Shown here piece by piece: positions 29,601 to 35,257 of a stretch of DNA of 64,000 bases. The DNA is from Carcharhinus amblyrhynchos (lineage: Eukaryota): NCBI GenBank assembly GCA_965287045.1, contig OZ336876.1:2976001-3040000 (forward strand). Reading direction: 5' to 3'. Positions within the stretch are counted from its first letter, which is position 1. Each line of letters begins with the position of its first letter. Both the position numbers and the translations under genes were made by a program. The notes below the pieces were generated by a model, which was not told the DNA's origin, ran no database searches, and was given only the letters and a program-made list of their open reading frames with translations.

Positions 29601-32600
29601 ATCGTTTTGATACGCCAAATAGATTTACAAAATGATTTCTAAATTGAATCGCTGTCGCCAATCTACTGGCTTCTGTTAAAACGGAGGGACGGGGGTGGTT
29701 GTGTGGGGTGCGGCTGCGAAGCACCAGATACTGTTTCGGGGTGAAGGAGGCGAGATTGTTATTTTAGATTCATATGTTTATTTATAATTCCCTCCAACGC
29801 ATTGTCCCCCCGTATCTCGCCTACAGAAGTACGATTCTGTGAGTATTATTGCTGTTGGTGTTGTGGAAGATTGTGTATTCACAACCATATTCGCATCGAT
29901 ACTTGTGGCTCCATACAGTGAATTTTAAATCCAATTATCACGGAATTCATTTTAACCAGGCTCAAATCTGTTTCACAAAGTTATCCCGTGTGACCTCGAT
30001 CAAACACTTATGCTGAGAACAATTTCCCCATGGGGGGATATAACAATTCTAATTCCTGATAGCTGAACGAGTACATTGCATACAGGCAATCAAGACATTT
30101 TTTTTAAATTTGGCTTCAATCCGTAAATGAACTGTATTTCTCCTTATGAGCTATCTCTATTTTCCATGAATTAAAATGTAAATTAGAACATGTGTTTGTC
30201 ATTACACCTTCAGACGTGTATTAACTATGTATCTTTAACAATTGATACTGAAGAGCTCAACCTCATTTCACTCTTTGGAAAAGTTAAATGTAAGACTTAT
30301 TAAAACGGCAGATAAAGCTGAAATATAATCTAAATTGCACTGTCAATTTCACTTCATTTTATCGTGAGACTCATTCCATATCGACGTCGGAGATATAATC
30401 TAAATTCAACACACATGGCCTTTAGATTTGTTTTCGCTATCAGAGACAACGCAACCCATGATTGTTCTTGCAATTCTAAAACATGACAATCGAGCATCTA
30501 CGTTGCATCAAGGTGATACGACGGATTTCTTTTTGTTACATACCTCTAGTGCAGATCTGAACGGGGACGCTCTTTATGGACTGTTCCCATTGATAGGAAC
30601 GAAAAGCCAGGCATTCGCATGTGTAATTGGCCTCATATCCAGGAGCTGCATCGAAGATCAAATGTCCCACGGAAAATCCTTTGTTTACGTCTGTTTCGTA
30701 AGACACACTGTGGCTGTTGTAGAAACGTATGACTTCTATGGGAGCCTGGCAGTGACAAGTCAAGTTTATTTTCTCCCCAACGAGGAAAAACTTGAAGTGT
30801 GGATTCAGAGATAAGTTTGGTCGCGGTAAATCAGCTGAAAATACGGAAGAAAGGAAAGTTCATTTCCGAAGTAATTTAATCAATTCAAAGTATTATTTAA
30901 AATATTATTATTCATGTTCCATGCATTAATTTCAATACAATCACTCATAACAATAAGAACAGGTAAGTGCCAACAAAAGTAAATCAAAGGACAAATGTAA
31001 AGTTGTAAACAGTTTCAGAACAATGGGAAATTCTGAGTCACCTTCTCTGTCATTTGTGCAACATTTTGTTTTACTTAAAATGTGTGCAAAATAGGAGCAA
31101 ACTAATGTCTTGGTGGTTTGAGCGTTAGCAGCCCAAGTGCAATGTAAAATGTTTGATGTTTCTTTCGTTAAAACGCGAACGAAACCTGAAACTATGCGGG
31201 TTTTGCTCAACCCCCAAGTTTGCTACAATGGTACAGTTGTTTTCAGACAATTCAACTCCTTACTAAAATTGCATTAAGAGATCCTCACCGGATATTCGGT
31301 CTCCGACCAACATATGGAGATTAACTGCGAAAAATAAGTGCAAAAAGTGAGCAGAGTAGCAATGCTGCAATGATATCCAGTACAATCCATGAGTTCTTTC
31401 AATCTGGATTGGGGCAAGACAAGAATTGGTGATGGTATAGGAACAATTTGGGAAGAAGTAGAACGCCTCTTCAGTCATTGTGTCAGCTCAGTGATTTACT
31501 TGCATCGTGCTTTATTTGCTTGTCAATTCGATGTCCTCAACTTGAACATGTATGTACATGTATACACATCAATAGTATCGTTCCAAGTCAGTGCAACATT
31601 ACAGCATCATATAATTATACATTCCTAATTGAGTTTCATTAGGCATCTATTTAGTGTATTGGCTGCCAAAAACGTTGAAAGTCAATACATGATTTGCGTC
31701 CATTATGCTGTGCTTTCCCATGCGAAACATGAGTGCTGTCTGTAAACTTTATAAGTCATATTATACTAAATAAACATTAGACCATGCTTTTGTAATCGGG
31801 CAACAAATTTTATCTAATTGGGCACACAAAATGGAAGCAAACTAAAGCTATCCTCAGAGCTCTCCACTCAAATCACAAAGTAATAGACACTGATCAGTAG
31901 GCAAGAGCATGCTTGTAGAATGCAAATGAGAGCTAGCACATAAGGGAATTTGGACAGGGTGGCACCTACAGGAACTAAATTAAAGAACATATCGCCACCC
32001 CATCAAAATCAGCACTTCTAAACCAGTCAAACAACCCATGGAGACGCCTAAAATTAACACAGTTAAGGAAGCGTCCCTGGCCCCTCAAAACTCTTGAGAT
32101 CAATAACGCACCTATGGTTAAAACCCCAGAGATTCTAGACCATTGATAACCAACCAGACCAAGACGATTAACACACACTTAAAACAATAGCTCCAACACT
32201 CGAAAACATCGAAACAGGATGGCTGAAGTCAAATACTATAAATAAAGGATTAGCATTTGAAACGCGAAGTTCAGGTATAGCTGTAGCCCGTTGTGGGGGA
32301 GTCTTCAGAGCACTTTCAGGACAGTCAGATTGTATGTCCTGACCGTGCTTCTCCGTCGACGTAAAAGAAAATAAAGCTGTGCCGTTATTGGACTTCACCC
32401 TGAGTCCGTAGTCGTCGTTTCGACCACTCGCGCTATCACTTTAATCCCAAAATGAAACTATTTAGTAATTTCGTATAACTAATTTATTCACACTTGATGT
32501 TTCCATGCCCATTACCCGCTTTTCCTTTACAATGCTAAGTGTATCTTCCAAATCAGCTTGATCCCATCTTGCTTTGATGTGGTCCTCAACAAATTTGTTT

Positions 32601-35257: not shown

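What the first reader, a model, noticed from the sequence alone, without database searches (positions are those of the whole stretch)
31289..35257. Split signal peptide with an exactly 36-nt mini-exon, an LRC gene-structure signature
Seen: a 31-nt ATG exon and a 36-nt phase 1-1 mini-exon give MINIIFLLGAINLHMLVGDRISA, and the mini-exon is identical in both paralogs. Established: KIR, LILR and FCAR genes use a 36-nt second leader exon, whereas FcR/FCRL genes use 21 nt. Inference: this supports LRC ancestry independently of protein similarity and would date the exon structure to the jawed-vertebrate ancestor.
Basis: partly seen in the sequence, partly recalled or inferred. Interest (0 to 1): 0.7.

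Follow-up and report, generated by a model that had tools for sequence, protein, structure and literature searches.

The report
Shark LRC-type receptors with split leader
A 36-base mini-exon likely completes the signal peptide of two shark immune-receptor genes that lie in a large cluster, likely the counterpart of the human leukocyte receptor complex, right beside Fc-receptor-like genes; the exon's exact length is not a reliable family marker.

Summary
Observation confirmed. The 31-nt ATG exon (35227-35257) and 36-nt phase 1-1 exon (31289-31324) are there on the minus strand with good splice sites. A RefSeq protein of another shark (Mustelus asterias) matches gene A exon by exon, leader included (264 of 376 residues). 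No RNA run was listed. Identity between the two copies is weak evidence: flanking introns are 95% identical. The LRC reading is probably right, but for other reasons: an ITIM/Arg-TM receptor pair, best structure hits CHIR/PirB/LILRB, and a TTYH1-LENG8-LENG9-CDC42EP block in human order 1.1 Mb away. Exactly 36 nt is not diagnostic: relatives gave 36 nt (10 calls), 33 nt (14) and 27 nt (1), each class backed by annotated orthologs. New result: a separate FcRL-type family (profile hit FCRL5, E 3e-113) lies between the cluster and TTYH1 with no assembly gap; its predicted mini-exons are 30 nt (5 calls, 6 genes), not 21. The split leader looks older than both families. Interest 0.55, mostly for the locus.

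The parts
35227..35257 (-). Gene A leader exon 1 (31 nt, ATG, phase-1 donor)
   Evidence: matched by P0011 residues 1-9
31289..31324 (-). Gene A leader mini-exon (36 nt, phase 1-1); predicted to supply the end of the hydrophobic core and the cleavage site
30544..30834 (-). Gene A Ig domain 1 exon (291 nt); carries CxC on both cysteine strands
28708..29013 (-). Gene A Ig domain 2 exon (306 nt); best structure hits CHIR-AB1, PirB, LILRB2
27798..27839 (-). Gene A stalk exon (42 nt)
26537..26578 (-). Second copy of the gene A stalk exon, followed by GC instead of GT; use uncertain
23759..23860 (-). Gene A transmembrane exon, no charged residue in the helix
17987..18014 (-). Gene A cytoplasmic exon (28 nt)
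17769..17821 (-). Gene A cytoplasmic exon (53 nt)
16631..16668 (-). Gene A cytoplasmic exon (38 nt)
13410..13535 (-). Gene A exon with ITIM-like motif 1
11589..11666 (-). Gene A last coding exon with ITIM-like motif 2 and stop; the whole model is 376 aa
58927..58957 (-). Gene B leader exon 1 (31 nt)
55281..55316 (-). Gene B leader mini-exon (36 nt, identical to gene A's)
54535..54825 (-). Gene B Ig domain 1 exon
51613..51918 (-). Gene B Ig domain 2 exon
50694..50735 (-). Gene B stalk exon, copy 1
49417..49458 (-). Gene B stalk exon, copy 2
47579..47687 (-). Gene B transmembrane exon with an arginine near the outer end of the helix and a short tail (activating type)

Best explanation
The two exons are likely the two halves of a cleavable signal peptide for a pair of two-Ig-domain shark leukocyte receptors, one predicted to inhibit (gene A, two ITIM-like motifs) and one predicted to activate (gene B, arginine in the membrane helix), in a cluster that is likely the cartilaginous-fish counterpart of the leukocyte receptor complex. 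Shown: exon positions and phases, an open 376-aa model for gene A, an ortholog with the same leader, the gene cluster and its neighbours. Inferred: exon 1 gives the start and half of the hydrophobic core; the mini-exon gives the rest and the Ile(-3)/Ala(-1) cleavage site, the Ala codon being made at the junction with the Ig exon. Because the exon is symmetric, skipping it would keep the frame but cut the uncharged run from 18 to 11 residues and remove that site, which would lower surface delivery as reported for FCAR. Gene A would recruit SHP-type phosphatases; gene B would pair with an FcR-gamma-like ITAM adaptor, and both would bind related, fast-changing ligands through domain 1. The split leader is shared with the neighbouring FcRL-type genes, so it likely predates both families; its length drifts in whole codons (27-36 nt here).
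For: Leader; ortholog P0011 maps exon by exon, 264 of 376 identical, same length; skip test; FCAR variants without S2 lose the SignalP call and fall from 40.2% to 14.6% surface detection (PMC5351921 Table 1). LRC: domain 2's four best structure hits are CHIR-AB1, PirB, LILRB2 and LILRA2. The family profile scores PirB domains 17-33 bits, LILRB2 19-31 and FCRL5 8-22; medians are 35.9 for tetrapod LRC-type domains and 19.5 for fish FcRL-type, and the order reverses (18.2, 27.1) with the shark FcRL profile. A tree puts both window domains, all 31 shark relatives and 20 of 24 tetrapod LRC-type domains on one branch, SH-aLRT 84. TTYH1, LENG8, a LENG9-type gene and a CDC42EP gene lie at C7 4.09-4.17 Mb in the human order (order from PMC6557307 and PMC6182393). 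An FcR-gamma-like adaptor is encoded on C189. Domain 1 has pN above pS in 3 of 3 paralog pairs, p = 0.02 in one, uncorrected.
Against: No transcript from this genome was seen. Domain similarity is weak (best single-domain E 5e-5), and domain 1 alone hits FCRL5 and Fc-epsilon-RI slightly better than KIR2DL4 (E 0.01-0.04). Whole-protein profile scores for PirB (145 bits, 6 domains) and FCRL5 (139 bits, 9 domains) are close. A tree without the shark FcRL domains was unresolved and left tetrapod LRC domains apart from the shark ones; the later branch has only SH 84, no bootstrap, and also holds coelacanth, turtle, anole and frog proteins of uncertain family. Gene B has Thr, not Asn, three residues before the arginine. 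The other LRC framework block was not found here: CNOT3 is on C35, Nop-domain hits are on C1, C11 and C804, and the RPS9 and Prp31_C searches were empty. The FcRL-type genes lie closer to TTYH1 than the window does, so synteny alone does not choose between the families.
Confidence: 0.78

Rival explanations
1. One reading: a mini-exon of exactly 36 nt is an LRC signature, independent of protein similarity, against 21 nt for FcR/FcRL, and this contrast dates to the jawed-vertebrate ancestor.
For: FCAR S2 is 12 codons. In this genome 36 nt appears in 10 of 25 calls in the LRC-type family and in 0 of 5 calls in the FcRL-type family. Coelacanth P0240 and tortoise P0172 have a 36-compatible spacing.
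Against: 15 of 25 calls in the same family are 33 or 27 nt, backed by P0156, P0009 and P0031. The shark FcRL-type calls are 30 nt, none 21. Gar and teleost FcRL5-like proteins also fit 36 by spacing. Only a fraction of Xenopus FcR-like genes use 21 bp.
Confidence: 0.12
2. The genes are a separate, old family of C2-type paired receptors (sharks, rays, coelacanth, perhaps frog and reptile 'IGSF1-like' proteins) that is sister to, or older than, both the tetrapod LRC and FcRL families and works like LILR/CHIR without being their ortholog.
For: Unresolved tree; the family profile scores coelacanth (median 70.5), turtle/anole (45.8) and frog (38.3) proteins above recognisable tetrapod LRC domains (35.9); SRCR-Ig hybrids occur in the family; the arginine helix is also used by Xenopus FcRL and SLAM receptors.
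Against: Reciprocal profile scores and the second tree favour LRC over FcRL; the TTYH1 block marks the LRC in mammals and Xenopus. This rival differs from the best explanation only in orthology, not in mechanism.
Confidence: 0.2
3. The 36-nt stretch is a chance exon-like sequence or a gene-prediction artefact and is not spliced in.
For: No RNA was available here; RefSeq models are predictions and their read support was not seen.
Against: Only in-frame candidate in the intron; length and an Ile-x-Ala end kept in P0011, P0019, P0021 and P0097 from three other shark species; in a blind scan of 34 upstream stretches, 31-nt leader candidates were 11 of 33 on the sense strand against 0 of 14 antisense, and 33/36-nt exons 13 of 33 against 2 of 22 (paralogs are not independent).
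Confidence: 0.04

Closest known systems
Tetrapod leukocyte receptor complex (human LILR, FCAR, NCR1, OSCAR, KIR; mouse PIR; chicken CHIR, turkey TILR; Xenopus ILR)
   Same: Two-exon signal peptide and one exon per Ig domain (PMC3601082); 12-codon second exon as in FCAR; inhibitory ITIM and activating Arg-helix pair; tandem expansion; linkage to TTYH1-LENG8-LENG9-CDC42EP5.
   Different: Mini-exon is 27, 33 or 36 nt across the family; no Asn before the Arg; domain 1 has extra cysteines; some relatives carry SRCR domains; the CNOT3/RPS9 block was not found beside it; FcRL-type genes sit between it and TTYH1.
FcR/FcRL family (FCRL1-6, Fc-gamma-RI, Xenopus XFL, teleost LITR)
   Same: Two-exon leader with a symmetric mini-exon, C2-type domains, paired signalling; Xenopus XFL also use an Arg helix.
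   Different: The window genes lack the 21-bp exon and score lower against FCRL5 per domain; the shark's real FcRL-type genes are a separate neighbouring family with 30-nt exons.
Unnamed RefSeq shark and ray proteins ('uncharacterized', 'IGSF1-like'), e.g. Mustelus asterias LOC144493891
   Same: Direct ortholog of gene A: same length, leader, domains and tyrosine motifs.
   Different: Automatic names only; the database gives no family assignment, leader-exon analysis or synteny.
Elephant-shark LRC-like and FcRL genes of Wang, Belosevic and Stafford 2021 (PMID 33410929)
   Same: Recalled from the abstract, not retrieved (title seen in a reference list): one LRC-like gene and two FcRL genes in a chimaera. 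If so, presence of both families in cartilaginous fish is already in print.
   Different: Here there are dozens of genes, inhibitory/activating pairs and gap-free linkage of the two families; I could not check whether that paper reports linkage.

Membership tests
LRC-type receptors | Signal peptide split over two exons, phase 1, one exon per Ig domain | tested here: met
   feature stated in PMC3601082
LRC-type receptors | Second leader exon of 36 nt (seen for FCAR; KIR and LILR recalled) | tested here: met
   Met for both window genes, but 15 of 25 calls in relatives are 33 or 27 nt, so it does not define the family here
LRC-type receptors | C2-type Ig domains closer to LILR/KIR/CHIR than to FcRL, CD22 or CEACAM | tested here: inconclusive
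   Leans LRC: (SH 84). Against: domain 1 alone, first tree
LRC-type receptors | Paired inhibitory (ITIM) and activating (basic residue in the helix, short tail) members | tested here: met
   motifs only, no function shown
LRC-type receptors | Strict NxxR motif in activating helices (common in the LRC, not universal, also in Xenopus FcRL and SLAM) | tested here: not met
   Arg present in genes B and C but with Thr or Ser at -3; gene D has His. Not treated as defining because it is neither universal nor exclusive
LRC locus | Linkage to TTYH1-LENG8-LENG9-CDC42EP5 | tested here: met
   no gap from the window to the CDC42EP and first LENG9-type gene, one 100-N gap before LENG8. CDC42EP5 and LENG9 are named from domains and position
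LRC locus | Linkage to the RPS9-TSEN34-MBOAT7-CNOT3-PRPF31 block | tested here: inconclusive
   CNOT3 on C35; PRPF31 not assigned among Nop hits; empty; TSEN34 and MBOAT7 not searched
LRC-type receptors | Leukocyte expression; binding of MHC class I, Ig or collagen; FcR-gamma or SHP association | not testable with these tools
   No RNA run listed; only the adaptor gene's presence was checked
FcR/FcRL (window genes) | 21-bp second leader exon | tested here: not met
   36 nt; rule from PMC2413239
FcR/FcRL (window genes) | FcRL domain types D1-D5 | tested here: not met
   A search with a shark FcRL D3 domain did not match the window; the shark FcRL profile scores window-family domains at median 18.7
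FcR/FcRL (neighbouring genes, C7 3.40-3.75 Mb) | FcRL-type domains | tested here: met
   One domain hits Fc-gamma-RI D3 at E 5.6e-14; the profile hits FCRL5 at E 3e-113 against 2e-26 for LILRB1
FcR/FcRL (neighbouring genes, C7 3.40-3.75 Mb) | 21-bp second leader exon | tested here: not met
   Predicted 30 nt in 5 of 6 genes, no call for the sixth; no transcript or ortholog check

The most novel reading that the evidence does not exclude
This shark chromosome end keeps the ancestral jawed-vertebrate layout: LRC-type and FcRL-type receptor genes side by side in one cluster next to TTYH1-LENG8-LENG9-CDC42EP5, both born from one gene with a 31-nt exon plus a 30-36-nt leader mini-exon. The textbook 36-versus-21 contrast and the separate chromosomes of the two families would then be later changes in bony vertebrates.
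Probability: 0.45. Interest if true: 0.78.

Novelty: new member of a known kind. Interest (0 to 1): 0.55.

Why it matters
The origin of KIR/LILR-type receptors and their relation to Fc receptors is an open question. PMC4016189 (2014) found no LRC, FcRL or FcR-gamma homologs in sharks, and PMC6557307 (2019) called the fish evidence uncertain. This genome shows an expanded paired-receptor cluster, an FcRL-type family and an FcR-gamma-like adaptor, with the first two physically linked beside LRC framework genes. That gives named candidates for shark NK or myeloid receptors and a locus in which the common-origin idea can be tested. The finding also warns against using a leader-exon length as a family barcode.

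Tried and rejected
No RNA holder was listed for the gene, so no reads were laid. Domain 1 alone found no database relative and no Pfam family. Prp31_C and ribosomal S4 family searches were empty. Paralog identity was rejected as evidence of selection. A 21-nt candidate in the fourth FcRL-type gene was set aside because a 30-nt exon there is homologous to those of two paralogs; other isolated 21-nt candidates had no paralog support and some look repeat-derived. In 10 of 34 upstream stretches I made no call; several probably do not start at a first exon or are too short. No intact leader exon 1 was found for gene D. The first domain tree was unresolved. Paper searches for the 36-bp rule returned nothing. 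Five papers were not held: the Xenopus ILR paper, the catfish LITR paper, Wang 2021 and one on the primordial immune complex. The scan's earlier findings held nothing. SignalP was not available; no fold or complex job was run. The region beyond TTYH1 was not read.

Full report
Observation. On the minus strand, 35227-35257 is a 31-nt exon from ATG to a GTGAGT donor, and 31289-31324 is a 36-nt exon with a pyrimidine tract, CAG acceptor and GTGAGG donor. They join in frame to an Ig exon at 30544-30834. The window is a tandem duplication; the second copy has the same exons at 58927-58957 and 55281-55316. The mini-exon is the only in-frame, stop-free one of 4 small candidates in that intron (approximate recalled splice tables). 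Its identity in both copies means little: the introns are 95% identical and 190 of 1272 windows of 36 columns match perfectly.

The genes. Gene A has leader, mini-exon, two Ig exons, stalk, an uncharged membrane helix and five tail exons with two ITIM-like motifs; the model is 376 aa. Gene B has the same front end but a helix with an arginine and a short tail. A profile search found Mustelus asterias XP_078069600.1 (P0011), which maps exon by exon onto gene A, leader exons included, with 264 of 376 residues identical. Basking-shark, catshark and horn-shark relatives keep the leader spacing. The window is therefore from a shark, by homology. RefSeq models are predictions; their read support was not seen, and no RNA run was listed for this genome.

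What the mini-exon likely does. With it, 23 residues precede the Ig domain, the uncharged run is 18 residues and the -3/-1 positions are Ile/Ala; without it the run is 11 residues and the site is gone. In human FCAR, S2 covers residues 12-23, and variants lacking it lose the SignalP call and show 14.6% against 40.2% surface detection (PMC5351921, Introduction and Table 1 read). The same role here is inferred.

The cluster. The window is G000:C7:2976001-3040000. Domain 2 has 70 matches in the genome, most at C7 0.7-3.35 Mb; a local profile found 114 domain hits in the stretches fetched. Domain 1 differs more than introns among paralogs A, B and C: pN exceeds pS in 3 of 3 pairs (0.145 against 0.042 for A-C, one-sided p = 0.02, uncorrected; the other two not significant); domain 2 does not show this.

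Is 36 nt a signature? I scanned 34 upstream stretches with free exon length and picked 25 calls in 24 genes by splice score, paralog similarity and leader-like sequence: 36 nt in 10, 33 nt in 14, 27 nt in 1. Ten stretches gave no call. The picks were by eye, but a blind count shows the same peaks: 31-nt leaders 11 of 33 sense against 0 of 14 antisense, and 33/36-nt exons 13 of 33 against 2 of 22. Annotated proteins back each class: P0011, P0007 and P0002 for 36 nt, P0156 and P0009 for 33 nt, P0031 for 27 nt. So the length varies within the family.

Family assignment. Domain 2's best structure hits are CHIR-AB1, PirB, LILRB2 and LILRA2 (E 5e-5 to 5e-4); domain 1 gives only weak hits led by FCRL5 and Fc-epsilon-RI. 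A 23-domain profile scores PirB domains 17-33 bits, LILRB2 19-31 and FCRL5 8-22. A first tree was unresolved. After adding the shark's FcRL-type domains, the window domains, 31 of 31 shark relatives and 20 of 24 tetrapod LRC-type domains shared a branch at SH-aLRT 84, apart from FcRL-type and CD22/CEACAM domains (first four domains per protein only, no mammalian FcRL, some group labels mine). This leans LRC but is not decisive.

Synteny. A Tweety gene at C7 4.14-4.17 Mb has an exon matching only TTYH1. Next to it are LENG8 (E 3e-32), a LENG9-type ORF (CCCH, MJ1316 and AKAP7 domains) and a CDC42-effector gene. This is the block in the middle of the mammalian LRC (PMC6557307 and PMC6182393, passages read), and TTYH1 and CDC42EP5 flank the Xenopus LRC (PMC4536121, passages). 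There is no gap from 2.936 to 4.098 Mb; one 100-N gap lies between two copies of the LENG9-type ORF. Against: CNOT3 is on C35 and PRPF31 and RPS9 were not placed. Of 52 candidate exons scanned in the 3.75-4.09 Mb gap, hits included Josephin, DUF3754, CAF1C/WD40 and RRM domains; I read the first three as JOSD2, TMEM143 and GRWD1, human 19q13.33 genes, from memory.

Unexpected result. C7 3.40-3.75 Mb, between the cluster and TTYH1, holds six genes of a second Ig family. One domain hits Fc-gamma-RI D3 at E 5.6e-14; a 13-domain profile hits FCRL5 at E 3e-113, far above LILRB1 at 2e-26. Seven of 9 genome-wide matches to that domain are here and the other two are weak. Four of the genes show ITIM-like motifs downstream. 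These calls lack ortholog or RNA support. Only a fraction of Xenopus FcR-like genes follow the 30/21-bp rule (PMC2413239, passages), and gar and teleost FcRL5-like proteins have a 36-compatible spacing (proteins only). An FcR-gamma-like and a CD3-zeta-like gene both exist, so gene B has a plausible adaptor.

What is known. PMC4016189 (passages) reported no LRC, FcRL or FcR-gamma homologs in sharks. Searches pairing shark or cartilaginous terms with LRC terms (listings only) showed no paper on a shark LRC. I ran no search aimed at shark FcRL, and subscription journals are mostly missing. I recall that Wang et al. 2021 report an LRC-like gene and two FcRL genes in the elephant shark; the paper was not held. 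PMC3601082 (passages) confirms the split leader in bird LRC genes. PMC11835228 and PMC10247546 (passages) added only background. No supplements were read.

Verdict. The exons are real and probably spliced as proposed (about 0.93). The genes work like LILR/CHIR paired receptors and are probably LRC orthologs (about 0.78). A two-exon leader in the jawed-vertebrate ancestor is likely (about 0.85), but an exact 36-nt length is not an independent signature (about 0.12). The more interesting lead is the gap-free linkage of LRC-type and FcRL-type genes beside TTYH1, shown in one genome; whether it is ancestral is open (0.45). Interest 0.55.

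Noticed in passing
G000:C7:3404000-3741000 (L174-L208): Six FcRL-type genes with ITIM-like motifs and predicted 30-nt leader mini-exons, between the LRC-type cluster and the TTYH1 block.
   Followed up: yes
G000:C7:1440000-1460000 (L113-L114): SRCR exon pieces directly upstream of LRC-type Ig exons, suggesting SRCR-Ig hybrid receptors; database relatives with both domains occur in sharks, a ray, sturgeon and coelacanth (P0001, P0002, P0006, P0046, P0099, P0101).
   Followed up: partly
window 30544-30834 and 54535-54825: Domain 1 has a CxC motif on both cysteine-bearing strands, kept in relatives from several sharks; a second disulfide is possible. 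It also shows pN above pS among paralogs.
   Followed up: partly
G000:C7:3046950-3067640 (L011-L013): Gene C, a third paralog just outside the window: its domain 2 exon has a short deletion that shifts the frame and has lost its donor, so it is a pseudogene or skips that exon.
   Followed up: partly
window 26537-27839 and 49417-50735: The 42-nt stalk exon is duplicated in both genes; gene A's second copy is followed by GC rather than GT.
   Followed up: partly
G000:C189:322662-322745 (L230); G000:C15:15409226-15409312 (L229): An FcR-gamma-like and a CD3-zeta-like adaptor exon; PMC4016189 reported no FcR-gamma in sharks.
   Followed up: partly
G000 C29 35.41-35.44 Mb, C31 23.94 Mb, C47 0.62 Mb, C108 0.59-0.62 Mb: Smaller groups of related Ig exons away from the main cluster; C47 and C108 are small contigs that may belong to it.
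   Followed up: partly
G000:C7:4094739-4101250 (L168-L169): The LENG9-type ORF appears twice on either side of a 100-N gap, probably an assembly overlap.
   Followed up: no
G000:C7:2293068-2297054 (L124): One gene has two near-identical copies of its 33-nt leader mini-exon, and a third weaker copy closer to the Ig exon.
   Followed up: no
window 35300-35320: A short out-of-frame upstream ATG lies in the 5' region of gene A; two Mustelus isoforms instead extend the frame 30 residues upstream.
   Followed up: no
window 791-4300, 33360-34554, 57012-58245: Decayed LTR-type integrase/gag pieces and LINE-type reverse-transcriptase pieces (recognised from translations, labels recalled); the LINE piece sits in the intron between the two leader exons of both genes.
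   Followed up: no
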